DNA of 64,000 nucleotides. Source: Lama guanicoe (Eukaryota). Position 1 is the stretch's first letter; each line of letters starts with the position of its first letter. The position numbers were made by a program, and so were the translations under genes. Below, in pieces: positions 2,797 to 62,387 of the stretch. Where the stretch lies: positions 186,001 to 250,000 of the forward strand of contig MU053754.1 in NCBI GenBank assembly GCA_013239625.1, written 5' to 3'. Below the pieces are notes generated by a model, which ran no database searches, was not told the origin of the DNA, and saw only the letters and a list, made by a program, of their open reading frames with translations.

Positions 2797-5119
2797 AAAT
2801 GTTAGTTATGTTAGAAAACATAAAAGCAGCAAGCATCAGAATCTAGAGGTGAGTTGCTAATCAGAAAAAAATGGGAATCAAATGCTGAGGTCACTTGTTG
2901 GGTGGAGGGTCAGACTAGGTCATGGAAACAAAAACAAATTCCTTTTGCAGGGGAGATGAGCTGAGTTGATTGGCAGGCAAACAAGCAAATAGGATGATTT
3001 CAGGTAAAGTTGAATGTTAATGAAAAAAGTACAAGAAAGATGCTCCAGGGGGAATTTCCTATTCAAAACCTGCTAATTTTCTGATTTTCCTCCTTGGAAA
3101 AGGCTAAACCAGGTCTGAATTGGGGGTGGGGGAGTGATGGACATACAGCCACTCCCACGTCTTTTCTTATCGACCCGCATGCTTAGGATGCAGGCTTCAG
3201 CTGGAGTGAATTTGTGAGTGTGAGAAAACCGTCTGACAGCCACGTCTTGGCCCTGCCTTTCCATGGAAACTTATTCTCTAGGCATTTCTCAGTTTACAAA
3301 GGATCAGCCATAAATCCCACCAGTGAAGGGCTTCAGAGATGTGCTGTGAACCTAGGAGGGTAGAAGGAAAGAGATGTTTTCTCCCCTACCTGCCAAAGAG
3401 ACCTTCAGAATGTGTTGTGCATTAATCCAGACTGTTCATTCACTGTGCCTGAATTTTAACAGATATTTACATAATTTAACATAATTTTATGACATTGGTG
3501 GCTTGCAGTTCCTTCTCTCCCCACTTAAAATATATCTCCTTCATTCTGTCATGGGAAGAGCTTCCTCAAGGATATATGAATTTTTTAAATTTATCTACAG
3601 AGTCATTGAATGTCCTTAGAACAAGGAGGGTGAATACACTGCCCTTTTTTTTTGGTGCAAAGTATCAACTCTGCTTGTTCAGAACCCAAAAAAGAAGACA
3701 TCGTAGGGACGTGAAGTCAGGGAAGCCCACTTCAAGATCTTTCTTAAGCTTCAGAGAGGATTTAAAGTTTTCTATACTGTAGAACTACTAAAAATAAAAT
3801 AAGAAGGCATTTTTCTTAGAATTTTTTTCCTTTCATTTCTGTGACTCCCATTAGCTAAAGTGCTGAGAAAAAGATATTGGTTCTGTGTATGGAGAAAAAT
3901 GGAGGATAATTCAGTTACATAGGAAAATTGTCAAAGTTAAGAACCTCTTGGCCAAGGTATTAAGAGTTGAGCTTCACATTGAAATACATGTGTATTAAAA
4001 TATAAACTGAAATGTAGGGTATGTATGATGTGATATTCGTATGTTACAATGTATGATGATATATTAATATATTTTTAAAATATAGAGGTTTTGAAGGTTA
4101 CAAGTTACTATAGTGCTAAATATATTATTATTGTATAACGATGCATGTATAGAACATTATATTGCTTTTTGATGTAATGTGGTTTCTGTATGGTATACTT
4201 CGCATGCGTGCGGGTGCATTGGTGGATGTATGATTTAGGTACGTACACTGTGAACAACAGCAGTGCCTTGGAAGTAATCCAGGGTCTAAAAGGGTCATCC
4301 TTAAAGCCACTTCTGTACCACTTACGTACCTGTGTAACTTTCCAAGAAATGGACGTTGAGGACATTGATTTTTGTTTGTTTCATAACTCTAGGTTTGAAT
4401 TCTGAGTTGACAGCAAAGAGGAGAGTTACTGAGATCTTCCCTGAAGATGAGCTTAGTGTTAGACCTCGTATGTCTACGTGCCACGTCTTTTTACATTTTC
4501 CACACAGAATGCATATGTACCTAGAAGAAAGTCTGAAAATTGCCAACTTCCTTCTCTCTCTGAACTGCATGCTGGCAGTCATTTTCTGGTTATTCTGTTC
4601 TGATCATTCATTTGTGGAACTCCCAGGTAGACAGCCCAGGGTCGCACCGGGCAGCCTGGGACAGTCAGGCAGTGGGGCAGCTGTTGCCTGGGGTCCTGGC
4701 ATCCCGTGGGGAGGTGTGTTGGGCCGGCAGTGACTGGTGCTCTGGGGAAGGGGCACGGGGTACCCGAGGGAGGGTCGCAGTGTTTGTGGAGGCTCAGTGT
4801 GGGGCGCGCCCTCTTGAACTGGGTGCCGGCCTCCAGCGGACGCTGTGTGTCGTTGCTGGTCGCAGCGTGGCTCCTTGGTCTTGTGGGTGGGAAGTTACAC
4901 CCTTGCAGGGCCCTCCTGGTCCCAGGAAAGAGAAAACAAGCTCTGGCTCTGTCATCCTGTACACAGCCCATTTGTCTCTCCACTTTAACTTTCATAATAA
5001 AAGGACGTAAAGTCAGTATCTGCTATTACTGCCTTTAAAAATATTCGTCCACGCCATACCACGCCCCCCGACCCCCCATCCCGTAGCCTCCTTCATTGGG
5101 TTTATTCCTAAGTATTTTA

Positions 5120-24994: not shown

Positions 24995-25121
24995 AAAATC
25001 CTCTCGAGGTGTAAACTGGGAGGAAACTGCGGACGAGGGTGCAGGGGTGGGGGAGGAAGGAGTCTGCCATCTCGAAAGCTCTCCAGGCGATCCTTACGTG
25101 TGCCGAAGTGTGAGAGCTCTG
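24995..25121. mobile_element. MER5A-like fragment
   Basis: gagtctgccatctcgaaagctctccaggcgatccttacgtgtgccgaagtgtgagagctctg resembles the MER5A end. Confidence 0.5.
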
Positions 25122-25139
25122 GTTTAAAATATCCGGGAC

Positions 25140-25693
25140 AGTAGGGTAAGGGAGGAAAAATAACTTCCCCTTCTGAGTTCTTGGCTGGCAGCCCTGTAAT
25201 GTAAGGCAGATCAACAAGAGAGATCTCAACAGGAGTTTGCTAACGCGTCTACCTCGTGTCTGTACGGGAGATGCCCTGGGGAAACGGGCAACTCCTGCAG
25301 GGGCTGAACACTCCAGCTTGTGCAGCATCTTCAGCAGAGAACAGACTTTGTGGGGCAGTGGCAGGAGGAAGGACAGCGGTGGTAGCCTTGAAGGCTGGAG
25401 GTCGAGGCTGGTTGGTAGCGTTTGTTACGTAGTCTTCCTCTGTCTTCTCTAGGCTCAGCGAGTCTCACGCTGTCTCTGGGTTAACCTTTGTTCCCCCAGA
25501 GAGAGCTGGAAATGTATGTCCTGCTTTTAGGCAAAGGGGCGCAGGACAGAGAGTTTTTCTTGTCTTCTTTTCAGTTGCCTTCAGATTAAATTAATCTGTT
25601 CGCCAAAGTGGCATTTTTTTTTATATTGAAGTATAGTTGATTTACAATGTTGTGTTAGTTTCTGGCGTACAGCACAGTGATTCAGTTATACAT

Positions 25694-25979: not shown

Positions 25980-27295
25980 AATTGAAAACAAAATAGAGTA
26001 GTGTTCTTTATGAACACAGATGAAAAATTCTTAAAATGTTGGCAGGTGTCACAGAGGTCTAGCCACACCCCCAGTAATGTAATCAAGTTGGTTTTATTTC
26101 ATGAATGAAAAAAGATTCAATTTCAGTTATTGTATCAATACAGTTAATGATAAAAAGAACTGAGAGAAAAATCTACGTAACTGTATCAGTGGATGTTATA
26201 TAGATATTTGATGAATGAAAGAGTTCTTACAAATAACAAATAATATTAAGTGAAACAGATATTGAAACAAACTGCTTAAATATGACATTATTTACTTAAA
26301 ATGATAATCGTCAGTCAAATAGATTCTGGAGAATTTCTCTCGCAGTTGGGTACGGAAGCATGACACCAGTTTTAATTGCTGTTGTTAAACATTCTCTGTT
26401 TAGTTTTAATAACCTGCAAAAGAAGACAATAAAGTTTACTTTAATGTTAGATCAAGAGACAAAATTGTCTCTATTTGCAGACTCTGTGGAGACTAGTGAA
26501 AACAAACGAGAATTAAGCAAGTCTTACCAGGGTAAATTAACAGTACAAGTTACACGCACAAATCAATAGATTTTTTTTTTTCCTCTGGAGTTGATAATAA
26601 TCCCTTAGGAAAATAATGAAAAAAATGTACCGACTCATAATTATGCTGAAATGATTAGTTTATAGACATAAATGTAATAAGAAAGACTTAGAATTTATAA
26701 GAATGTATAATTTATTTTTTCAGAAATCTGTAAAATCTTATTAAGTACAAAATACAAAACCTGACTATATGCAGAGATAATCCATCGTCCTGGGGTTGAA
26801 TACTTAATTTTATAAAAACACAAATACGTAAATTGAATGCATACCAGTAAAATCCCGACACACATAGGGGAGGGGAGGAAAAGGATTAAATAGTCTTCAC
26901 ATTCCAGTAATAGCCAAGGATATTGTGAAAAAATTTACCATAATGTTCCTGTTAATTAAAATAGACAATATTGGTGAAGAACTAGGTAAATACATTCATT
27001 AACTAGAAGAGATTACCGATACGTGTGTAAATACACATACATTCAATATATAACAAATAATACGTATTAAATACATGTGTAATCAATCCAACAGTTTATT
27101 TCAGCAGGAACAAACTGATTAACTTCTTTGATAAATGGTTCTGTCATCATTGTCTATATGGAATAAAAAATGAAAAAAAAAACCTTTCATTCCTATGTGC
27201 AACCGTATTTATAAGCAAATCCCAGATGAGTTTACCAATTAATGAAAAATATGCGCTGTTAGAAGAAAATTGAATAGACTGACTTACTGATCCTG
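25980..27295 (+). mobile_element. Old L1M ORF2 remnant
   Basis: A-rich degenerate ORF2: atgaacacagatgaaaaattcttaaaa, aaattgtctctatttgcagac, tcaatagattttt, gataaatggtt, aaatcccagatg. Confidence 0.75.
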
Positions 27296-28049: not shown

Positions 28050-29330
28050 GATGGATTATGGCATCCTTGAAGACTATGACAACCTCGTGGTCATATTACT
28101 TTCAGACTAGTAGGTCTTGGTCCTTGACAGTTTGCATTTGTAAGAGAGAGAGGAACGTCGTGAAGGAATTATGGAAACTTTTGCTTCAGCTCGTGAAGAA
28201 TACACCACTGTGGGAATTGCCTCCTCGTTGTAAACAATTGGAAAACTCGGAAGATGTGAAACCATGGTTTTCAGACTTTGGACAGTGGGCAACATGACTG
28301 TGATCCTTGCGATGAGGGCAGCTAACGAAGCAAGCAGTCAGTGGCCCTTGCAGCTTACTGTCCAAGCCAGTTTCTAGACCTTAGCTGAAGTAGGAGGAAG
28401 CTAAACTGGGCTCTGTGTGCTGAATCGAGGTCACAGGGACCTGAGTTCAGAGTGTGAGGAGGCTGAGGGTCCCTGGTTACACCAGGCAATGTTGTGGAGA
28501 GGAAGGGCCGGCACACAGAGGGAGCTCGGGAGACCTACGTCGGGGTCTCTGCCTCACTTTGGTGTCTACGCTGGGGGTAGAGAGCCAGCAGAACTCACCC
28601 AAGGATGGGAGCCGTTCACGTCCACACCAGCCAGCGTGGAGACACCTCATGGTACACAGAGCTTATCACCGTGAGCACCGACCAGAAAGCCAACGGGCGA
28701 GACAAAGCCTGGGAGAAAACATTCAGGAAACAAGGCTCTGACAAAGGACTGAGGCCCACAGTATACGAAGGGAACATGCTGCTCAGGGATAAAAAGACAC
28801 ACCGGGCGGCTTTTCCAAAGGACAGGGACTTGGACAGATGATTCTGTAGAAACACAAGTAAATGGCCAATAAACACACAAAAATCAGTTTAATCCCAACG
28901 GTATTTGTTAGGGGTCTGTGGGGAGATTCCAGTAGATACCAGACATGAACACTGAGCAGATTGACAACGTCCGATGCTCACAATGACGTGGGGCAACTGG
29001 AAAGTTGGTACGTATTTAGGGCAAGCGTGAAATGGCTGTGATTTTGGAAAGACTCCTGGACGTTGAGTCAAATACTAGATGACACAGTGACTTAGCCATC
29101 CCACTGCTCTTTACCCAAGATAATGAAGACTGATGTTCTGAAAGACTTGACAAGAAAATGAAGAGCAACTTAATGTATTTGAGGTTAAGAAAGAAGAAAA
29201 AAGGAGGAGGTGGTCCAAGTATTAATGGACAGAAGAAAGAACAAAGCACTCTTTTGCAGCCCTCGGCAGTGAAGATCATACAACAGTGATAATTCTATGG
29301 AAAATGTTGGAGGGAATGAAAGGGTCCTCA
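28050..29330 (+). mobile_element. Old L1M fragments (5'-region-like, then ORF2 end and 3'UTR)
   Basis: gacaaagcctgggagaaaacatt...ctgacaaaggactg...aaatggccaataaacaca...gatgacacagtgacttagccatcccactgct. Confidence 0.65.
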
Positions 29331-29659
29331 GCTAAGTGAGCATCCACCATAGGACCCGATTGTCTTGGAGCTCCAGAACAGACAAAGCCCTTATTTGTTG
29401 GAGGAAGTGCGAGCTCCGCGCGGCCTTGGTCTGGCAGGTGCGGAGCTGGACTGAAACTTGGCAGGAGGGGACCGCCTGGGAGGCCTGTGCTCGGGGTCCT
29501 GATGGGGTTTGGGCCCCGCACGTGTGCGCGCCTGTCTCCTCATCCCTGGCATCCTTGACACTGACGTATCTCGGGCATCGGACCATCCGATCGTCAGGCC
29601 ATCGGGGTGGTCTCCCCTGGCCTGGGGTGGTCACTGCTGGCTATCTGATCGCCAGGTTC

Positions 29660-31380
29660 TCGGGACAGACTCGGGTATCGACTGTGTCCCCTGGCCGGGC
29701 GCTCGCTGTCCTCTGGTCTCGATTGCGTCCCCTGGGCCCAGTCCCCTCCTGCTGGGGTCCCTCACTGACTCGGTTATCGACTCCTCTTCCTGGAGCAGCT
29801 TCACAGCGGCTTGTGCTCCCTGGAGTGACTGTGCCGTCAACTGTCTTCCCTGGACTGCGGGAATTACTTCCTGTCGCCTCTTCACTGACTGTTGACCTCG
29901 GACTGACACAGTCATTCATTATTTTCCCTGCTCTGATGGAACTGGTCCTCAGTGTTTTCCCTGGACTTTCTCCATCATTGACTTGTTTCCCTTGACTGAC
30001 TCGGTCGTTGACTTGTTTCCCTGGACTGACTTGGTCAACTCCTCATTACCCTGGACTACCTGAACTCTTTCTCTGGGCTGACTCAGTCGTCCACTCTCAA
30101 CCCTGGACTGAGTGATCAACTGTTTGCCTGGGATTGAGTTCTCATTGACTCGTTTCCCTAGACTGACTCGGTCATCAAAATGTTTACCTTCACTGACTTG
30201 GTCAACAATTAATTACCCTGGGCTACCTGAACTTGTTTCTTTTCTCTAGACTGACTCAGTCGTCCACTCTTTTCCCTGGACTGAGTGATCAACTGTTTCT
30301 CCTGGATTGACTTCTCATTAATTGTTTAGACTGGCGTGAGTGAGTCATTGACTCGTTTCCCTGGAGCAACTCGGTCATCAACTATTTTGCCTGGACCGAC
30401 TTGGTCATCGACTCGTTTCCCTGGAGCAACTCGGTCATCAACTATTTTGCCTGGACCGACTTGGTCATCGACTCGTTTCCCTGGAGTGACTTGGTCATCA
30501 ACTATTTTGCCTGGGTTGACTGGGTCGGTCACCAACTCGTTTCCCTGGACTGACTCGGTCATTGACTCGTTTCCCTGGGGCGACTCTGTCATCAACTATT
30601 TTGCCTGGACTGACTCAGTCGGTCATCGACTTGTTTCCCTGGAGCAACTCGGTCATCGACTTGTTTCCCTGGGGTAACTCGGTCATCGACTTGTTTACCT
30701 AGGCTGACTCGGTCATTGACTCGTTTCCCTGGACTGACTCGGTCATCAACTACATTGCCTGGACTGACTCAGTCGGTCATCGACTCGTTTCCCTGGAGTG
30801 ACTCGGTCATCACCTATTTTGCCTGGGTTGACTGGGTCGGTCATCAACTCGTTTCCCTGGACTGACTCAGTCGGTCATCGACTTGTTTCCCTGGAGCAAC
30901 TCGGTCATCGACTTGTTTCCCTGGGGTAACTCGGTCGTCGACTTGTTTACCTAGACTGACTCGGTCATTGACTAGTTTCCCTGGAGTAACTCGGTCATCA
31001 ACTCGTTTCCCTTGAGTGACTCGTTCATCAACTACTTTGCCTGGACTGACTCAGTCGGTCATCAACTCGTTTCCCTGGACTGACTCGGTCAACAACTCAT
31101 TACCCTGGACTACCTGAACTCGTTTCCCTGGGCCGACTAGTCCTTGACTGTTTTCCTTGGAGTGACTGGATCTTCATCTGTTTCTCCACAGACTGAGGGA
31201 ATCACTCATTGCCTGCCATCTCATCCTCAACTGTTTACCTTGGAGTGATTTGTTCATAGGCTGTTTTCCCTCAGCTTAGGAGATTCTGTCCTCTCCATCA
31301 TCAGCTGTTTTCCCTGTACTGACTCGGTCATCGACTATTTACGTCTCGAGTGACTGTCATCGACTGCTTTTCCTGGACTG
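29660..31380. repeat. 30-bp CpG-containing minisatellite, consensus ~CCTGGACTGACTCGGTCATCGACTCGTTTC; homogeneous core ~30340-31100
   Basis: 30361-30420 and 30421-30480 are identical 60-mers (a dimer of 30-bp variants); 34-bp variant units; degenerate flanks. Confidence 0.95.
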
Positions 31381-31395
31381 CGGCAGATGACGCGT

Positions 31396-31457
31396 CGCCA
31401 TCTTGGTTCCAGTTCTTAAAAGTGCGGTTCTTGGAAATTAAAAGTATATATTTGCAT
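31396..31457 (-). promoter_or_regulatory. Motif cluster: octamer (ATTTGCAT 31450-31457), TATATA (31445-31450) and YY1-type CAAGATGGCG (minus strand, 31405-31396)
   Basis: Motifs read directly; function is inferred only. Confidence 0.3.
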
Positions 31458-31888
31458 ATTCATGCGTGTGGAAGCACACCGGTGTACCTGAGTGTCCCTC
31501 GAGGAGAGCCACGCCTCTGTGCGTCCCAGTGGAGAGTGTGGGAGGGTCTCTCCATGCGTTAAACTCCCCGCGTGACAGGTGAGGCCTGGGCCCGAGCATC
31601 TTTCGTGTTTTCCTCAGTTTTTCGGTCAGTTTACTTGGATTTGTTCTCCGGGAAGGGTTTCCCTTTGCTTTCCTCAGACTTATTAAGAATTTAGTGTTAA
31701 GAATGTGGGCCCTCTCTTTGTTATGTTGCAAATATTTATCTTCACTTCGCCTGAATTCTTGTGACTTTATGGCTTTTTGTTTGTTTTTTTGGTTCTGGAA
31801 ATATGTATATTTTAAATTATAGAGACAAATTTATCAATCTTTGCGTCTGGATTTTGAATGACCTTTAGAAAACAGTACCGCACACCAA

Positions 31889-32305
31889 GTTTCTGGGAGA
31901 ATTAATTTACTTTCCCCCCAGAAGGTGTGTGTGGTTTCTGGGAGAATTAATTCACTTTCCCCCCAGAAGGTGTGTGTGGTTTCTGGGAGAATTAATTCAC
32001 TTTCCTCGAGAAGATGTGTGTGGTTTCTGGGAGAATTAATTCACTTTTCTTCAGAAGGTGTGTGTTGTTTCTGGGAGAATTAATTCACTTTTCCCCAGGT
32101 GTGTGTAGTTTGCGGGAGAATTAATTCTCTTTCCCCTCAGAAGGTGTGTTGTTTCTGGGGGGATTCGTTCACACCCCCTCCCCACCACCGCCCCCCAGAA
32201 GGTGTGTGTGGTTTCTGGGAGGATTAATTCGCTTTCCCCCAGAAGGCGGGTGTTGTTTCTGGGGGAAAGCGCGTCAACCAGATTCCCTTTCCCGCAGAAG
32301 GTGTG
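31889..32305. repeat. ~45-bp minisatellite, ~9 units (GTTTCTGGGAGAATTAATTCACTTTCCCCCAGAAGGTGTGTGTG)
   Basis: Unit starts at 31889, 31934, 31979, 32023, 32067, 32108, 32151, 32211 and 32255. Confidence 0.95.
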
Positions 32306-32690
32306 CGTCGTGTGGGCGCAGCGGCGAGCGCGCGCACGTGCGTTCGGACGCCGGCTTCAGGGGAAGCCGGTCCGTGCGCAGGAGTGAGACGCGCCTCCCG
32401 GCGCCGTTTTCCTCGTGGTGCCCGGGTGCCCGGCCTTCGCCGGGGTCGGGGAGGGGGGCGCGCTCCCCAGGGCTGCGGCCCCGTGTCCCTGTGTGTTTCC
32501 AGGCCCGCAGGCCTGTCCCCGGCCCCGGCGTGTGTCCAGGGCCCGCCGCGCGGCTCCGCGCAGCCGCGGTGTCCCGTGTGTGGAATCTGGGAGGACGGCG
32601 CCCGCTCGAGCGTCTGTGGCCGCCTCGGGGCCGGTTCTTCGCGCGAACCTCCCCGTCCGTTCATTTGACTCCCTGCGTCGGCTAAGACTT
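32265..32690. promoter_or_regulatory. Orphan CpG island
   Basis: Very GC- and CpG-dense ~420 bp between AT-rich flanks; E-box CACGTG at 32335-32340, a GC-box-like ggggagggggcg and GCGC runs. Confidence 0.7.
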
Positions 32691-33189
32691 TTCTTGTTAC
32701 TGCCGTAACGTTAATTTTATGTCACCCAGAATTGACAGCTTTATGATTTCAAGTCGTCCTATTCAAGGATTTTTTTTTCCATTTCTTCAATCTACTTTTC
32801 TTTCCGTTTTCTTTTTTTTTCCCCTTTTAATTTTTTTATTATAGATTTATTTGGCGTATTTTGTCTTAATTTGATTCCTGGGTATGTTAACTTCTTTGGT
32901 GCTATTGTATAGAGAGTTTTCCGTAATATTTACTACAGATGTTTATTTGGGGTGTATATTAATGCTTTCTGAGTGTTAATTTTTATGGTTAATTTACTCA
33001 ATTATTTTGTCGTTTGAATTAATGACATCATTGATTTTCTAAGGTTTTCCAGGTATCAGCTGCACAATTTGAATGTTTATTTTTCTAATTCTTATATCTC
33101 TAATTGGTTTATTTTGTCTCCTTCAATTAGCAAACATTTCCAGCATAATGTTGAATGTTTTGGGTCTTTTCTGTCATTTTCTTCTAACT

Positions 33190-33290
33190 CTTTTTTTTTT
33201 TTCAATTGAAATATCGTGCATTTTCAATATTGTGTTAGTTTCTGCTGTACAGCAATGTGATACGGATGTGTATATATGCACATGTTTCAG
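33190..33290 (-). mobile_element. Short L1 tail
   Basis: T-tract then caattgaaatatcg...tgtgttagtttctgctgtacagcaatgtga. Confidence 0.8.
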
Positions 33291-33419: not shown

Positions 33420-35010
33420 TTTTTTTCCTTGAAATACAGTTGATTTACAGTGTCATGTTAGCTTCAAATGTACAGCAAAGTGATTCAGTTATACGTGTGT
33501 ATGTCTATATATTCTTTTTCATATTCTCTTTTATTATAGGTTATTACAAAAAAATGAATGTAGTTCTCTGTGCTGTACAGACAGACCTTGTTGTTTATCT
33601 ATTATATATATATATATGTTAGTTAGTATCTGCTAATTTATCCCTTCCCACACCCTTGCCCCATTGGTAACCATAAGTTTGTTTTTTATGTCAGTGAGTC
33701 TGTTTCTGGATTGTAAATAAGTTCATTTGTGTTTTTTTTGTAAGATCCCACATATAAGTGATATCATATGGTATTTTTCTTTCTCTTTCTGGCTTACTTC
33801 ACTTAGAACGACCATCTCCAGGTCCATCCATGTTGCTGCAAATGACATGATTTTATTCCTTTTTATGGCTGAGTAGTATTCCACTCTATAAATATACCAC
33901 AACTTTATCCAGTCCTCTGTTGACGGACATTTAGGTTGTTTCCATGTCTTGGCTATTGTAAATAGTGCTGCTATGAACAGTGGGATGCAGGTGTCATTTT
34001 GAAGTAGGGTGAACATTGGGGTGAGTGTATCTTAGCTTACTTCACTTAGAACGACCATCTCCAGGTCCATCCATGTTGCTGCAAATGACATGATTTTATT
34101 CCTTTTTATGGCTGAGTAGTATTCCACTCTATAAATATACCACAACTTTATCCAGTCCTCTGTTGACGGACATTTAGGTTGTTTCCATGTCTTGGCTATT
34201 GTAAATAGTGCTGCTATGAACAGTGGGATGCAGGTGTCATTTTGAAGTAGGGTGAACATTGGGGTGAGTGTATCTTTTTCAATTAAGGTTCCTTCTGGAT
34301 ATATGCCCAGGAGTGGGATTCCTGAGTCATAGGGTAAGTCTATTTTTAGTCTTTTGTGGAATCTCCATACTGTTTTCCACAGTGGCTGCACCAAACTGCA
34401 TTCCCACCAGCAGTGGAGGAGGGTTCCCTTTTCTCCACAGCTTCTCCGTCATTTGTCGTATGTGGAGTTTTGAATGATGGCCATTCTGACTGGTGTGAGG
34501 TGATACCTCATTGTGGTTTTGATTTGCATTTCTCTGATAATTAGTGATACTGATCATTTTCTCATGTGCCTACTGATCATTTGTATTTCTTCCTTGGAGA
34601 ATTGCTTGTTCAGGTCTTCTGTCCACTTTTTTATTGGGTTGTTAGGTTTTTTTGTTACTGAGTTGTGTGAGCTATTTATATGTTCCGGACATTAAGCCCT
34701 CGTCACTTGCATTGTTTGCAGTTATTTTCTCCCATTCCATAGGTTGTCTTTTCATTTTATTTGTGTTTTCCTTTGCTGTGCAAAAGCTTGTAAGTTTAAT
34801 TAGGCCCCATTTGTTTATTTTTGCTTTTATTTCTATTGCCTGGGTAGGCTGACCTCAGAGAACATTGCTGTGATTTAAATCAGAGAATGTTTTGCCTGTG
34901 TTGTGGTCTAGATTTATGATGTCTTAAATTTAAGTCTTTAAACCATTTTGAGTTTATGTTTGTGTATGGTGTGAGGGAGTGTTCTAACTCCACTGATTTA
35001 CATACGGCTA
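33420..35010 (-). mobile_element. Truncated L1 (3'UTR plus ORF2 C-terminal region), frameshifted, with an internal 243-bp tandem duplication
   Basis: ORFs 33723-34016 and 34032-34394 translate to the L1 ORF2 C-terminus ([10 protein letters not shown]...PYD..IPLLGIYP...AALFTIAKTWKQPKCPS...WYIY..EYYSAIK). Confidence 0.95.
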
Positions 35011-36610: not shown

Positions 36611-36829
36611 TTCTCTGTAGGAATGTGTTTTCTGTTGTTTGTCCTTGTGGGAACTTGCGGGGACAGAAGATGGCCGTGACCCTAGACCCTGAAGACGGAG
36701 TCTGTGTCTTTAATCTGTACGCTGGGAGGGGTGGAGGCCCCTCGCCGGCTGAGTCCAAATCAGGCTGGAACGGAAAAGGGGAAGTTTCTCCTAAGGTGCT
36801 GGCTGTCTCCCTCCTGTGGCTCTAGGTTC

Positions 36830-37500
36830 TGAGAAGCCCGGGTAGAGGCTCGGGGGCGTCCGGGCGACTCCAGGGAGGCTTCACAGGGCCGCCTGGACTG
36901 TCCGCCCCCAGCAGGGTCACCTTGAGGGCCCGGGGCGGGAGCGTGTCAGGGTCCTTTCTGCAGGGCTCCCGGAGACCCACGCACAGGGGTCTGCCGTGTA
37001 GATCAGCCAGAGCCGGGGCCGCCGCCGCCTGGAGGGACCCGGTGGGGCGCCCTCTGCGGAGCAGTCCCCGCAGGGAGCTATCAGGTGTGACACTGATGTC
37101 ACAGGCGGGGCGAGACTGGACCAGCCTGAGCAGCAGCAGCGGCGGGACCCCTGGCCCAGGGCTTCGGGAGGGTGCCGAGGGCGAAGTGATGAGGGCCGTG
37201 TGTGCACGTGGCTCGTCGTGGGCAGGGCGTGTGGTCTTGAGTGAGGCAGGGAGGCCCTGATGCAAAGACAAAGGGCTGAGGCGGGGGACGCGGTGGCAGG
37301 GACGTGGGGATGTCACACACTAGCGTAAACCCAGAGGGGGCTTTGCGAGGGGAGGGCCTGACCGCAAGCCCCACTGACACGTGAGTCCAACAGCTTCTCT
37401 GGAACCAAGGACAGTGTGAGCGGGAACGTGAACATGGGTTTGTGGGCACGCACAGGATGTCTGTCGTTGCAGGGAGCTGCAGGAGGCAGCAGTGGGGCTC
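36830..37500. other. GC/CpG-rich patch (CpG-island-like)
   Basis: Abrupt GC-rich ~670 bp with many CpGs between AT-rich flanks. Confidence 0.6.
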
Positions 37501-37515
37501 TGCAACCCAGACATG

Positions 37516-37693
37516 AACAAAAATAAAAAACATTATTCTCTACTGTTAAAAAAAGAATTAAAGCAGAGCATCCATGATGAATAGAATGTTGAAATTTGAA
37601 ATAAAGACAACATCAGTATTACTGATTTCCTTTTGCCGTAAGCTCCAGTCTGGCCAGGCGCCATGCATTACCCGCCCTGTAGTTATAATTTTG
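37516..37693 (-). repeat. Inverted partial copy of the MER96B-like element at 39291-39470
   Basis: Reverse complement aligns at high identity (roughly 85-90% by eye) to 39291-39470. Confidence 0.85.
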
Positions 37694-39145
37694 AGGCTCT
37701 ATTCTTTATGGACCCTGGCCCAGGGGTAAATTTGGAGCCAAGGACACCCTTCTAGCCTGGAGCCAACCTTCCAAGTCAGCTCAGAATATTCATCCTATTT
37801 TACCAAATAGAACATGGGGAAATGCATTATTAAAACACATAGAACTTACGAGGTGTTCCACCTCAAGTGTTTACCGAGTTAATGAGAGTAAAAGGGTTTG
37901 ATGAACGTCAAATGCACAACTTTGGCTTACTACGTATTTTCCAGCGACAAAGTCTCAGTAGTTCAGCATTTGAATGTTACATGATTCATGAGATTTGGGT
38001 TTTTTTTCCCTTCTCATCTACAATATGTGACTCTCATTTTCTCATCCTGACAATCACGCCCAGAAAGTCAATCTGCTGTTTTTATATTCCTTTCGACTGC
38101 CAAGAAGAGAAAAAAAAAATTTTACCTTCTGTTAAAAAGCTGTGAAATTCTCACACACAGTGGGTTTTTCAAATTACAATTCCATACAGTTCCTAAGAGA
38201 ATGATTTGTGCATTAACCAGGAGGAAAGGAAACAGAAATATTGTAATGCATGGCTTTTTATTTCACATTCTGGGGGTTCTCAATTTAAAAATAAATAGGA
38301 ATGTTTAAAAGATCATATACTAATGTTACAGTAAACACCTTAACGCTTTATATTAAAACTGAGATATGTTGGCTATAAAAGCACTTAAACCCTTTAATTC
38401 ACAAAGTGCTTGAAAATTGGAGCATCCAGGCCCGCACGTGTGAAACAGCAGTTATGCCTTAAAGACTCTAAACGCTGTAAGATTTAGAGACGGAGTTAAT
38501 GTAAGCTGCAGGCACGATCGTTGGGGGGGGAGTGGTTTTAGTGGCAGCAGTGATGGTCTGGGGGTCCACTCATACACACACAGACACAGGAAACCAAGGG
38601 CACGTCCCAGCCTGTTCAGGAGTGTGCGTCTCGGTCAGCTTTGGGTTAGACAGTTTGCAAATTGCAGCATTTTCAAAATTCACAAAAACCACTGCAAAGT
38701 GAAATTTCTGCTCAACTCCAGTTGCCATGTTTTGGAAGATTATTAAACATTAACATAGGTTCCCAGAAGACTGGATTCTGCTTCTTCAAGTGCATTATTC
38801 TCAGATGAGAATTTCTCCTATCTGAGCGTGTAAACTGCTTCCTCAGCCGACCTCGGGCATGCAGCCTGCTTTGGCAAGTCCTACTTTAATGGATTATTCA
38901 AGGCAGATCCTTGTAAAAAATACTTACTCAGGTTTTAACTTAGTTAATGATGATTTAAACTCCAAGACTCTCTGCGGGAAAAAATACACCATTAAGGTAT
39001 ACTGTGACACATTCCATGTTTATGCTGTTTTCTTTTTCAAGAAGGAGTATTTTCTTGGAGTATTGAATTTCTTTCTAAATGTACTGGAAAATTTTGGAGG
39101 AATTACTGTTGCTTGTGACAGGATATTCGTCACGGGGGTTGGGGA

Positions 39146-39655
39146 CAGGGCTGGATTAGGATGAGGCAAAGGAAGTGAACACTTCTTAAGAGGGCATTTG
39201 TCTCATGCAAAGTTTAAGTTCGTAATCAAGGCAACTGTTTTAATGCATTTTCAAATGAAAATTCATGTAGAACACCCATAAAAAAAACATCGAAATTATA
39301 AATACAGGATGGATAATGTGTGATGTGTGGCCAAACTGGAGCTTAAAGCAAAAGGAAAATCAGTGATACTGATGTTGTCTTTATCTCAAATTTCAATATT
39401 CTATTCATCACGGATGCTTTGCTTTAATTCTTTTTTGAGTAATAGTAGAGAATTTTTTTTTATTTTTGTTATCTATCATTTCGGTAGAGAACTGGGTTTA
39501 AATTTTTTTTTTAAACTGGAGTATACTTCTCATTCATTCTTATTTTAAAAACTATTTCATTAAATATTTATCTCAATGACTGAGTTTTTTATGCACTTTA
39601 AATTTTATGCCCAAGCGTGGGCCTCACCATCCTTACCCTCTTCCCCCAGCCCATG
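39146..39655 (+). mobile_element. MER96B-like hAT element with a ~100-bp internal insertion
   Basis: cagggctggattaggatgaggc...ctggagcttaaagcaaaaggaaaatcagtgatactgat...tttaaattttatgcccaagcgtgggcctcacc matches the recalled MER96B. Confidence 0.8.
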
Positions 39656-53188: not shown

Positions 53189-53848
53189 TTTTTTTTTTTT
53201 TAATTGAAGCATAGTTGATTTACAGTATTGTGTCAGTTTCAGGTGTACAGCAAAGTGATTCGGTTATACATACATATATCTCTATTCTTTAATCATCTTT
53301 TTTTGTTTGTCTTAATGGAGGTACTGGGGATTGAACTGAGGACCTGGTGCATGCTAAGCATGCACTCTATCACTGAGCTACACCCCCACCTCTCATATAT
53401 CTCTATTCTTTTTCAGAGTCTTTTCCATTATAGTTTACTGTAAGATATTGAGTATAGTTCCCTGTGCTGTACAGTAAATCCTTGTTGCTTATCTATTTTA
53501 TATATAGTAATTTGTATTTGTTAATCCCAAACTCCTAATTTTTCACTCCCCCATTTTCCTTTCCCCTTTGGTAACCTTGTAAGTTTGTCTTCTATGTCTG
53601 TGAGCCTGTTTCTGTTTGGTACATAGATTCATTTGCATTATTTTTTAGATTCCACATATGAGTGATATCATATGATATTTGTCTTTCTCTTTCTGACTTA
53701 CTTCACTTAGCATGATAATCTCAAGGTCCATCCATGTTGCTGCAAAGGCAATGTTTTATTCTTTTTTATGGCCGAGTAGTATTCCGTCGTGTGTATATGT
53801 ACCATGTCTTCCTAACCCAGTCGTCTGTTGATGGGCACTTAGGTTGTC
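53189..53848 (-). mobile_element. L1 3' end interrupted by a SINE
   Basis: Standard antisense L1 3'UTR through ctgttgatgggcacttaggttg. Confidence 0.95.
53291..53393 (-). mobile_element. tRNA-Ala-derived SINE (Vic-1-like, camelid) with perfect 18-bp TSD
   Basis: Reverse complement ggggtgtagctcagtgatagagtgcatgcttagcatgcaccaggtcctcagttcaatccccagtacctcca plus an A-rich tail; TSD catatatctctattcttt at 53273-53290 and 53394-53411. Confidence 0.9.
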
Positions 53849-56449: not shown

Positions 56450-57770
56450 TGAGGATGGAAGAATCATTAAAAATACATGTGGTTACATAAACCGGAGTAC
56501 ATCCTGACAGTGAAATACAGAGCACTGGCAAAAAGAATGACAAAGTGCTTTCTTTGTGCGCCGATATATAAGAGCTCCAGAAAGCTGTTAAGTAAAAAAA
56601 GTGAGGAACAAGAAAGTTTATATAGCATGCTACTTTTTGTTTAAGAAGGCGGAGTAATAATACATATTTATACTTAAATAAAGAAGCATTAGGAGGATAC
56701 GGAAGGGGTAGCCAGGAATGGAGGAGACAGCTAAGTAGGCAGAAGACGATGATGTATGTGTTTTAGTATAATTTTTCTTTTGAACCATATACGTTCTTAC
56801 CTGTTAGAATACATTTCAACAAATAAGATCGACTTAATTTTGTTTTTAAGATTTACTTGAGCTGCTGTGTAATTGATATTAATTTCCTGTGGTTGATAAT
56901 TATGATGTGGTTATGTAAAATTTTACCATTAGGGAGTGTAGGGCGAGAGCAATAAGAAAACTATTATTTTTGCAACTTTTCAGTAAGCCTAACATTAGTT
57001 CAAAATAAAAAGCTTTTTTTTTTTAAAGAGATGATACACAAGCAGCTGGTAAGCACATGAAAATGTGTTCAGCACCACTGGTTCTGTGAGAAACGCAAAT
57101 TAAAAGCACAGCGAGACACTATTTATATACCAAATAGAATGGCTAAAATTATAAAAAAAATGACAACAATTTTATGGGAGAAACCAACTCTTATGTCCAA
57201 CAACATTGGCATAATGTTGGTCAGGTTCTTCTCAAATGAAATATGCGTCTATCTTTTGACCCAGAAAGCCTCCTCTTAGGTGCTTATCCGTGAAAGGTGA
57301 TGGTGCCACACCGGCTTTAGCTGCAGTTGCCCCAGAGTGGAAACAAGCCAGATGTGCAACAGAGAATGGGCGTATGCTTCCTTATGCATCTAAGGGGAAA
57401 AGAAATACCAGAACAGTGGGTGTCTCTAGTTGGAGGACTGACTGGGGAGAGACGAGAGCTTTCAGAAGAGGTGGAGACGTTCTATATGGGGTCGGTGCTC
57501 TGGATTTTGGAGGTGTGTCTGTTGCTCAAAATGGCACACTTAATTTTTGTGTATTTCAACGTATGCGCATTTTCTCTCAGAGAAAGGACTGCAAAAATGA
57601 TAACTACTTGGGAGTTGGGGATGGACAGAAATACAGGTAACAGACAGCAAAATACTGATAATGGTTCAAGGGGGGAGCTAGATTGTTGGGGTTCACGACA
57701 TTGTTCTCTTTACTTTTTTATGTATTCTGTATTTTCTACGGTGAAAGTTAAAAATAATTTGAAAAAGGAA
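56450..57770 (+). mobile_element. Cluster of old L1MC/L1ME 3' fragments
   Basis: tgttaagtaaaaaaagtgagg...tatagcatgctac; ttaatttcctgtggttgataatt...tttttgcaactttt; taagcacatgaaaatgtgttcagcacc...agaatggctaaaatt...tttgacccag. Confidence 0.75.
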
Positions 57771-61282: not shown

Positions 61283-62303
61283 TTTTTTTTTCCTTTATTG
61301 AAGTACAGTTGATTTACAGTGTGGTGTTAGTTTCTGGTGTACAGCATGCTGATTCAGTTTTATATATATACAAAGTATATATATACATGTACAGTATATA
61401 TATACTTTTTAATATTCTTTTCCATTACAGTTTATTATAAGATATTGAAGGTAGTTCCCTGTTTTGTACAGCAGGTCATTTTGTTTCTTTGTTTTATATA
61501 TAGTGGTGTGTATCTGCTAATCCAAAACTCCTCATTTATCCTTCCCCTTTGGCGACTACAAGTTTATGTTCTGTCTTTGAGTCTATTTCTGGTTTGTAAA
61601 TAAGTTCTTTTGTCTCTCTCTCTGTTTGTTTGTTGTTGTTTTTTTTTTTTTTTTTAGATTCCACCTGTAAGTGATAACATATGATTTTTGTCTTTTTCTG
61701 TCTGACTTAACTTCATTTAGTATGATCATCTCTAGGTCCATCCATGTTGCTGCAAATGGCATTATTTCATTTTCTTTTATGGCTGAGTAGTATTCCATTG
61801 TATAAATACACCACATCTTTTTTATCTAGTCTTCTGTTGATGGACGTTTAGGTTGTTTCCATGTCTTGGCTATTGCAAGTACTGCTGCTATGAACATTGG
61901 GGTATATGTATGTTTTTAAATTGAGTTTTCTCTGGATATATGCCCAGGAGTGGGATTGCTGGATCATAGGGTAAGTCTGTTTTTAGTTTTTTAAGGAATC
62001 TTCTTACTGTTTTCCATAATGGCTGCACCAAATTACATTCCATCAGCAGTGCAGGAGGGTTCACTTTTCTCCACATCCTCTCTAGCATTTACCATTTGTG
62101 GACTTTTTATTGATGGCCATTCTGAGCAGTGTGAGGTGATATCTGATTGTAGTTTTGAATTGCATTTCTCTGATAATTAGCAATGTTGAGCATTTTTTCA
62201 TGTGACTATCGGCCATCTGTCTGTCTTCACGGGAGAAATGTCTGTTTAGGTCTTCTGCCCATTTTTGGATTGGGTTGTTTGTATTTTGTCTTGAGTTGTA
62301 TGA
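61283..62303 (-). mobile_element. Truncated L1 (3'UTR plus ORF2 C-terminus)
   Basis: ORFs 61583-61816 and 61888-62088 give the L1 ORF2 end (QPLWKTV...PYDPAIPLLGIYP; YTMEYYSAIK.NEIMPFAATWMDLE); flanks ctgaatttc / ctgagtttc. Confidence 0.95.
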
Positions 62304-62387
62304 TCTGAGTTTCTAAGTTTAGAGAAAATCTGTTGCATAACCTTTGTACCCTTGGATACTGAACTGTGAATCATTAGACAGTGTTCC

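What the first reader, a model, noticed from the sequence alone, without database searches (positions are those of the whole stretch)
29500..33180. One old antisense L1M apparently remodelled in place into two minisatellites and a CpG island
L1 antisense landmarks appear in the expected order across the region. cttgacactgacgtatctcgggcatcggaccat (~29554) resembles L1 cttaacaatatatcttggagatctttccat. The 30-bp unit core ggtcatcgacttgtttcc resembles L1 ggacatttaggttgtttcc. ggactgcggcagatgacgc (~31375) resembles ggctattacaaataatgc, with the substitutions all AT-to-GC. Clear L1 runs from 31408, then come the 45-bp array and the CpG island, and L1 resumes at ~32700. Inference: a long-lived recombination hotspot (gBGC plus repeat expansion) built a tandem-repeat/CpG-island module, the architecture of some DMRs and orphan promoters, out of dead LINE DNA. 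The L1 comparison is from memory.
Basis: partly seen in the sequence, partly recalled or inferred. Interest (0 to 1): 0.75.

Follow-up and report, generated by a model that had tools for sequence, protein, structure and literature searches.

The report
CpG island built from dead L1
Part of an old, AT-rich LINE-1 repeat in a camelid genome appears to have been rewritten, mostly by A/T-to-G/C changes, into a CpG island beside two minisatellites, which is the expected footprint of long-lasting recombination-driven GC bias and a clear example of a known process.

Summary
Partly confirmed. An old antisense L1 ORF2 is firm at 32727-33242 (E 2e-35) and moderate at 31684-31960 (E 1e-5), in colinear order. 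The 390-nt island between them (GC 0.74, CpG o/e 1.08) fits the missing L1 segment moderately: 0-2 of 300 shuffles, 0 of 31 wrong L1 segments and 2 of 24 other sequences reach its score, but 36 of 120 dinucleotide shuffles did with an earlier profile. The best evidence needs no L1 reference: the three 44-bp units beside the island carry 15 A/T-to-G/C against 1 reverse change, the six farther units 1 against 11. The left half is not supported. The 30-bp unit and the 31375 and 29554 landmarks do not map to their claimed L1 sites, and 29400-29600 fits the 3' end of a neighbouring sense L1 better. There are two GC peaks with AT-rich L1 between them, not one. Best reading: long-lived, PRDM9-independent recombination with GC-biased gene conversion (0.6). 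Recombination, methylation and promoter activity were not testable. The process is published, and this scan noted it before on other DNA.

The parts
26247..27271 (+). Old sense-strand L1 ORF2 fragment (neighbour; AT-rich control, GC 0.30)
   Evidence: own-profile nhmmer columns 58-1149, E 7.8e-26; composition
28678..29330 (+). Old sense-strand L1, ORF2 3' part, tail-to-tail with the antisense element; mildly GC-shifted (GC 0.44)
   Evidence: nhmmer 28678-29115, E 6.2e-14; pair-HMM z 15.7, 0 of 60; 62 W>S of 207, 33 S>W of 108
29330..29600 (+).
   Evidence: 29400-29600 against the old sense L1 tail at 57330-57620: z 2.8, 1 of 300; three other trims 9, 20 and 27 of 300; antisense references z below 0. 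29568 also matches an array half-unit. Weak.
29380..29860 (.). GC peak A (0.58-0.72 in 60-nt steps); CpG o/e 0.62 over 29330-29800
29660..31380 (.). 30-bp minisatellite (30- and 34-nt variant units, homogeneous core about 30360-31110, decayed edges); origin not established
   Evidence: no preferential fit to the expected L1 site
31400..31690 (-). Probable antisense L1 ORF2 3' part with deletions; small GC bump at 31480-31600
   Evidence: 1 of 150 shuffles; 31514-31548 has its best ungapped site at column 1621, in order (piece chosen after viewing alignments)
31684..31890 (-). Antisense L1 ORF2, AT-rich, not GC-shifted (12 W>S, 14 S>W)
31889..32312 (.). 44-bp minisatellite, nine units, lying in register within the L1; units 7-9 are GC-shifted
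   Evidence: also present in the more distant relative X17
32150..32700 (.). CpG island (GC peak C, up to 0.85); 32310-32700 fits L1 ORF2 columns about 690-1110 after heavy A/T-to-G/C change
32727..33242 (-). Antisense L1 ORF2 (about aa 640-825), AT-rich, ordinary decay (35 W>S of 224, 28 S>W of 76 over 32640-33160)

Best explanation
An old L1 inserted antisense here and decayed. A stretch of about 550 nt inside it then experienced repeated meiotic recombination for a very long time. GC-biased gene conversion fixed G/C at A/T sites on both strands and turned ORF2 DNA of GC about 0.36 into a CpG island of GC 0.74. Once CpG-rich and unmethylated in the germline, the island would keep attracting PRDM9-independent recombination, which explains the duration. 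The 44-bp minisatellite expanded in place at the island's edge, and its three inner units were caught by the same bias. A second, weaker peak formed 2.5 kb away at the junction with a sense L1, next to the 30-bp array. Shown: the flanking L1, the arrays, the island, the local W>S excess in the 44-bp units. Probable: L1 origin of the island (about 0.8). Inferred: recombination, hypomethylation, the feedback loop, and arrays as by-products of the same recombination.
For: Colinear flanks: 452 nt of window (array collapsed) against 505 profile columns. Island in the expected gap: 12.4-18.4 bits over shuffles, 0-2 of 300; 0 of 31 wrong L1 segments reach it. A simulation that GC-converts this element's own flank gives 13-21 bits (4 runs). 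Free of anchors, column 700 is the best of 38 windows. T/A ratio 2.4 in the island against 2.0 in the profile and 0.97 in the other island. 44-bp units 7-9: 15 W>S, 1 S>W; units 1-6: 1 and 11 (Fisher 6e-6). Both A and T fall by about 60% against the profile, so the change is strand-symmetric. Required mean B of 4-10 over the whole branch under my assumed rates, against a human hotspot median of 2.67 and lifespans of at most about 1 Myr (PMC4510005). Published precedent: PMC4350167, PMC11170920, bioRxiv 2023.11.17.567540.
Against: Island-to-L1 support is moderate and was reached after several profiles, cut points and parameter sets: z 0.7-3.0, 1.9-2.2, 3.2-3.8. 36 of 120 dinucleotide shuffles matched the best score with the second profile (not repeated with the last). 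2 of 24 other window sequences reach the same gain, and 6 of 40 wrong segments did on raw score. A simpler unanchored model put the island at columns 1400-1744. The 110:11 W>S count in the island is reproduced by shuffles, so it rests on the homology. The right edge is very sharp (GC 0.68 to 0.27 within about 120 nt). No difference was seen in 32192-32700 against run X16, so present activity is not shown. The GC bias at the 30-bp array edges is not clear (6:3, 14:11, 15:30, 11:18). No recombination or methylation data.
Confidence: 0.6

Rival explanations
1. Same L1 origin and same gBGC, but from a succession of short-lived PRDM9 hotspots or a generally high regional (for example subtelomeric) recombination rate, not a stable island-directed hotspot.
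For: The whole window is CpG-rich (o/e 0.45); old AT-rich L1 has o/e 0.56-0.62 against 0.09-0.16 in young L1. Several GC peaks lie in the window.
Against: The shift is confined to about 550 nt with unshifted L1 on both sides. A mean B of 4-10 for the whole branch is hard to reach with hotspots that move within about 1 Myr (PMC4510005).
Confidence: 0.15
2. The island is a GC-rich piece of other origin that replaced or inserted into the L1 and then seeded local gBGC in the neighbouring array units.
For: Alignment support is moderate; the right edge is abrupt.
Against: It would have to match the missing L1 length within about 10% and keep the antisense T-over-A skew. The fit improved as the L1 profile improved (10.7 to 13.5 bits at the same setting). 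It is not made of 44-bp units (42-53 of 150 shuffles).
Confidence: 0.12
3. The L1 segment was exapted, and selection built and keeps a regulatory CpG island (enhancer, orphan promoter or germline DMR).
For: No difference in 32192-32700 against 3 in 32700-33185 in run X16 (one contig, too few to test). Orphan islands track enhancer activity (PMC11170920).
Against: Selection does not predict hundreds of one-way changes, nor the same bias in repeat units. No exon candidate or RNA family of note nearby (crude exon scan). RNA-library contigs touched only the flank and the array at depth 2-4 (X19).
Confidence: 0.1
4. Loss of methylation or a local mutational bias alone made the island.
For: TpG+CpA o/e is about 1.0 in the island, as expected without CpG decay.
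Against: Protection from CpG decay cannot raise GC from about 0.36 to 0.74. A third of the aligned W>S changes are transversions and both strands are affected, unlike editing (established knowledge).
Confidence: 0.03

Closest known systems
New CpG islands generated by gBGC at PRDM9-independent hotspots (dog, PMC4350167; many placental mammals, bioRxiv 2023.11.17.567540)
   Same: Narrow W>S peak, CpG o/e near 1, away from genes, strength that needs a long-lived hotspot.
   Different: Here the substrate is an identifiable dead L1 and the species is a camelid (the words camel, alpaca and vicugna do not occur in the main text of the bioRxiv paper). Those papers measured recombination or methylation; I could not.
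Orphan CpG islands overlapping phastBias gBGC tracts (PMC11170920)
   Same: [quoted passage not shown]
   Different: No chromatin data here; the TE route they discuss is a CpG-rich element brought in, whereas here AT-rich L1 ORF2 was rewritten in place.
TE-derived minisatellites (PMC3389668) and GC-rich minisatellites as by-products of local meiotic recombination (PMC2599865 introduction)
   Same: Tandem array expanded inside a TE and lying at the edge of a putative hotspot.
   Different: Shown by position for the 44-bp array only; the 30-bp unit's source is not established.
Mouse pseudoautosomal region (bioRxiv 2022.03.26.485930)
   Same: High recombination accompanied by GC gain and a minisatellite of about 30 bp and about 50% GC.
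   Different: Chromosome-scale and gene-bearing there; two sub-kilobase peaks here. No sequence comparison with mo-2 was made.

Membership tests
Decayed L1 (ORF2) copy | Colinear homology of the AT-rich flanks to L1 ORF2 | tested here: met
Decayed L1 (ORF2) copy | Island 32310-32700 homologous to the intervening ORF2 segment | tested here: inconclusive
   Leans yes: 0-2 of 300, 0 of 31, 2 of 24; 36 of 120 dinucleotide shuffles
Decayed L1 (ORF2) copy | One antisense element continuing left through the 30-bp array to 29550 | tested here: not met
   my profile has no old-type 3' UTR, so a weak true signal could be missed
L1M subfamily | Assignment to a Dfam/Repbase subfamily | not testable with these tools
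CpG island (500 nt, GC 0.55, o/e 0.65; thresholds recalled) | Length, GC and CpG o/e | tested here: met
   551 nt, 0.693, 1.00. Peak A fails (471 nt, o/e 0.62)
gBGC tract | Local excess of weak-to-strong substitutions | tested here: met
   44-bp units 7-9, 15:1 against 1:11; polarity assumes the AT-rich units are ancestral, as the L1 register suggests
gBGC tract | Fixation bias (derived-allele skew) and measured recombination | not testable with these tools
   Only contigs of 4 runs; 8 unpolarised differences listed in the flank
PRDM9-independent hotspot | Germline hypomethylation and DSB peak on the island | not testable with these tools
   No methylation or DMC1 data
TE-derived minisatellite | 44-bp unit derives from the L1 site it interrupts | tested here: inconclusive
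   In register by position; by sequence the expected site ranks 5th without GC bias and is outside the top 8 with it
TE-derived minisatellite | 30-bp unit derives from the claimed L1 motif | tested here: not met
   position would fit by length, sequence does not score
Orphan promoter / germline DMR | Transcription start, active chromatin or allele-specific methylation | not testable with these tools
   Contigs cannot show starts; the island was not covered in X17 or X19

The most novel reading that the evidence does not exclude
A CpG island was born from scratch inside methylated, AT-rich L1 ORF2 by a self-reinforcing loop (recombination, G/C gain, loss of methylation, more recombination). The same recombination also spawned both minisatellites, and the graded units of the 44-bp array record the island spreading outward. 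The product is now an unmethylated regulatory element in camelids.
Probability: 0.2. Interest if true: 0.6.

Novelty: new member of a known kind. Interest (0 to 1): 0.33.

Why it matters
PRDM9-independent hotspots are expected to avoid transposable elements because these are usually methylated (PMC13186367). A strong gBGC footprint inside a dead L1 is therefore a useful case for asking which comes first, hypomethylation or recombination. The L1 gives the ancestral sequence and the 44-bp units give an internal clock. It also warns that repeat annotation will miss L1 that has been GC-rewritten. The process itself is published, and one locus without methylation or recombination data does not settle the order of events.

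Tried and rejected
No whole genome was available, so no orthologue or paralogue search. A GC-neutral local alignment with modern L1s saw only the AT-rich flank. Per-subregion tests of the island were individually weak (1-11 of 30-40 shuffles in most). BLAST of 31380-33180 against five host-contaminated genomes gave only short hits. Plasmid searches gave nothing relevant. The idea that the island is further decayed 44-bp units was rejected. The other GC peaks (36700-37330, 4560-4900, 25050-25400) show no L1 ORF2 signal (z at most 0.8). Ungapped landmark tests on four island pieces: 1 of 4 (32490-32520) had its best site at the expected column (pieces chosen after viewing alignments, so not independent). 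Scanning 29330-29550 and 29545-29800 against about 2500 windows of fetched loci gave no interpretable best hit. Laid contigs: X13, X17 and X19 do not cover the island, which proves nothing because a filter drops records. Of the listed flank differences, 3 of 3 (X16) and 4 of 5 (X17) have G/C in the window and A/T in the run; unpolarised and too few to use. The low-share runs X17-X20 are not evidence of expression. Literature: no paper held 4 of the 5 terms ancient repeat / gBGC / CpG island / weak-to-strong / L1M; none of the 4 listed for camelid + PRDM9 + recombination addresses camelid hotspots by title or abstract start. Most subscription papers are outside the library.

Full report
Setting. 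The window is mammalian and camelid-like: a young L1 at 34032-34448 has Camelus proteins among its closest named hits, and earlier notes on this genome call it alpaca-type (unchecked). No whole genome was held. A crude exon scan gave 9 weak candidates and Rfam one tRNA-like hit, so I have no gene context.

What is in the sequence. A 30-bp array is called at 29956-31111, and its decayed edges reach 29660-31380 (0 of 200 shuffles for each of four edge pieces). A 44-bp array has nine units at 31889-32312. The island 32150-32700 has GC 0.693 and CpG o/e 1.00. In 60-nt steps GC shows peak A at 29380-29860 (up to 0.72), a bump at 31480-31600, a trough of 0.20-0.47 at 31600-32140 and peak C at 32140-32680 (up to 0.85). 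One contig of run X16 spans 32192-33185 with 3 differences, all right of 32700, so the island is not an assembly error. Run X17, more distant (8 differences and 5 gap letters over about 410 nt of flank), also holds the 44-bp array, so the array predates that split.

Reference. With no Dfam, I built an L1 ORF2-to-3' profile of 2374 columns from L1 DNA found as host contamination in public collections, then added older copies. I used only part of the fetched loci, chosen to limit near-identical rodent copies. The copies are mostly younger than the element under test, and the profile has no old-type 3' UTR. That limits power, most of all on the left.

L1 flanks. tblastn places ORF2 aa 657-825 at 32727-33209, minus strand (E 1e-4). 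The profile gives 32727-33242 = columns 120-662 (E 1.9e-35) and 31684-31960 = columns 1089-1380 (E 1.1e-5) (composition correction off, which also yields AT-rich hits near E 1e-3 elsewhere). The order is colinear. With the array collapsed, 452 nt face 505 columns. 31400-31700 is weaker: 1 of 150 shuffles overall, 27 of 150 for 31590-31700. Two old sense-strand L1 pieces lie to the left (26247-27271 and 28678-29115), so the locus is two elements tail to tail.

Is the island L1? With a pair-HMM that allows W>S bias, the island placed between its anchors beats 30-nt-window shuffles by 18.4, 13.5 and 12.4 bits at three settings (0, 2 and 1 of 300). None of 31 wrong L1 segments exceeds 6.0 bits, but 2 of 24 other window sequences reach 13.5 and 14.1. 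Converting this element's own right flank to the same GC in silico gives 13-21 bits (4 runs, second profile), so the signal is about what a true homologue should leave. Unanchored, column 700 is the best of 38 windows, though a simpler model preferred columns 1400-1744. The best of 2012 single-copy windows is the oldest-looking copy at the expected place, by 0.2 bits (mapping). T/A is 2.4, as in antisense L1 (2.0), against 0.97 in the other island. Against this: earlier profiles gave z 0.7-3.0 and 1.9-2.2, 36 of 120 dinucleotide shuffles matched the best score, 6 of 40 wrong segments matched on raw score, and several settings were tried. I put L1 origin at about 0.8.

Direction of change. Aligned island columns give 110 W>S of 164 and 11 S>W of 75, against 32 of 216 and 26 of 64 in the right flank. 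Shuffles of the island give the same excess, so this count depends on the homology. The independent evidence is inside the 44-bp array. Against the consensus of units 1-6, units 7-9 carry 15 W>S and 1 S>W, while units 1-6 carry 1 and 11 (Fisher 6e-6; units 7-8 alone 10:1, p 0.014). The consensus was built from units 1-6, units share history, and polarity assumes the AT-rich form is ancestral, so the p-values are optimistic. The bias postdates the array's birth and points at the island.

The left half. None of the three landmarks has its claimed site among its five best positions. Gapped tests rank the expected windows 11th-119th of 230, and the anchored 31372-31399 piece scores below shuffles (141 of 150). 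By length alone the 31375 landmark and the array do sit about where that L1 motif would fall (31514-31548 = columns 1621-1655), so the idea is unproven, not excluded. 29400-29600 fits the tail of an old sense L1 at 57330-57620 (1 of 300; other trims 9-27 of 300) and not antisense references; 29568 matches an array half-unit. The 30-bp edges show no consistent W>S excess.

Mechanism. A two-state model with an assumed 2:1 AT mutation bias needs a mean B of 4.2-9.5 over a neutral branch of 0.35-0.15 to lift GC from 0.36 to 0.737. Human hotspots have median B 2.67 and last at most 0.7-1.3 Myr (PMC4510005, passages). That favours a stable, island-type hotspot; this step is inference. The sharp right edge and the lack of differences in X16 do not add support. 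Minisatellites as by-products of local recombination is a published idea (PMC2599865, passages of the introduction), not tested here.

Prior knowledge. PMC4350167 (passages): gBGC likely generated many new islands in dog, mostly away from genes. bioRxiv 2023.11.17.567540 (passages and section 8): PRDM9-independent hotspots are active in 39 of 52 mammals; its species figure and supplements were not visible and may include camelids. PMC11170920 (passages): many orphan islands overlap gBGC tracts; supplement not read. PMC3389668 (passages): at least 23% of human minisatellites derive from TEs. bioRxiv 2022.03.26.485930 (passages), PMC5698624 (passages) and PMC13186367 (passages) give context. Searches. 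I found no paper on this locus or on an island rewritten from L1 ORF2 in those searches. This scan has two earlier notes of islands built on old L1 in other DNA, which are AI notes and not support.

Verdict. A real, fairly clean example of a known process on the right half; an over-extended L1 reading on the left half; function untested. Interest 0.33, new member of a known kind.

Noticed in passing
window 33792-34276: Perfect 243-bp tandem duplicate (100% identical) inside the young L1; either very recent or an assembly artefact.
   Followed up: no
window-wide; 26250-27270, 32720-33160 against 33600-35000, 61500-62320, 2400-2800: Old AT-rich L1 has CpG o/e 0.56-0.62, young L1 0.09-0.16, the window 0.45. 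Old DNA here is less CpG-depleted than young insertions, which suggests a region-wide GC-restoring force.
   Followed up: partly
window 36700-37330: Another GC peak (0.67, CpG o/e 0.61) with no L1 ORF2 signal and no T/A skew; origin unknown.
   Followed up: partly
window 29975-30319 and 30360-31110: The 30-bp array has higher-order structure: a 167-bp duplicate, alternating unit pairs and recurring 34-nt variant units.
   Followed up: no
window 37516-37711 and 39276-39470: Inverted pair of about 200 nt at 83.5% identity.
   Followed up: no
window 53316-53387: tRNA-like match (33.4 bits) between L1 3' pieces; probably a SINE head (inference).
   Followed up: no
G003; L014: An archaeal MAG carries 59 L1 ORF2 matches and a contig in the viral collection carries a near-intact mammalian L1 ORF2: host contamination in both collections.
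   Followed up: no
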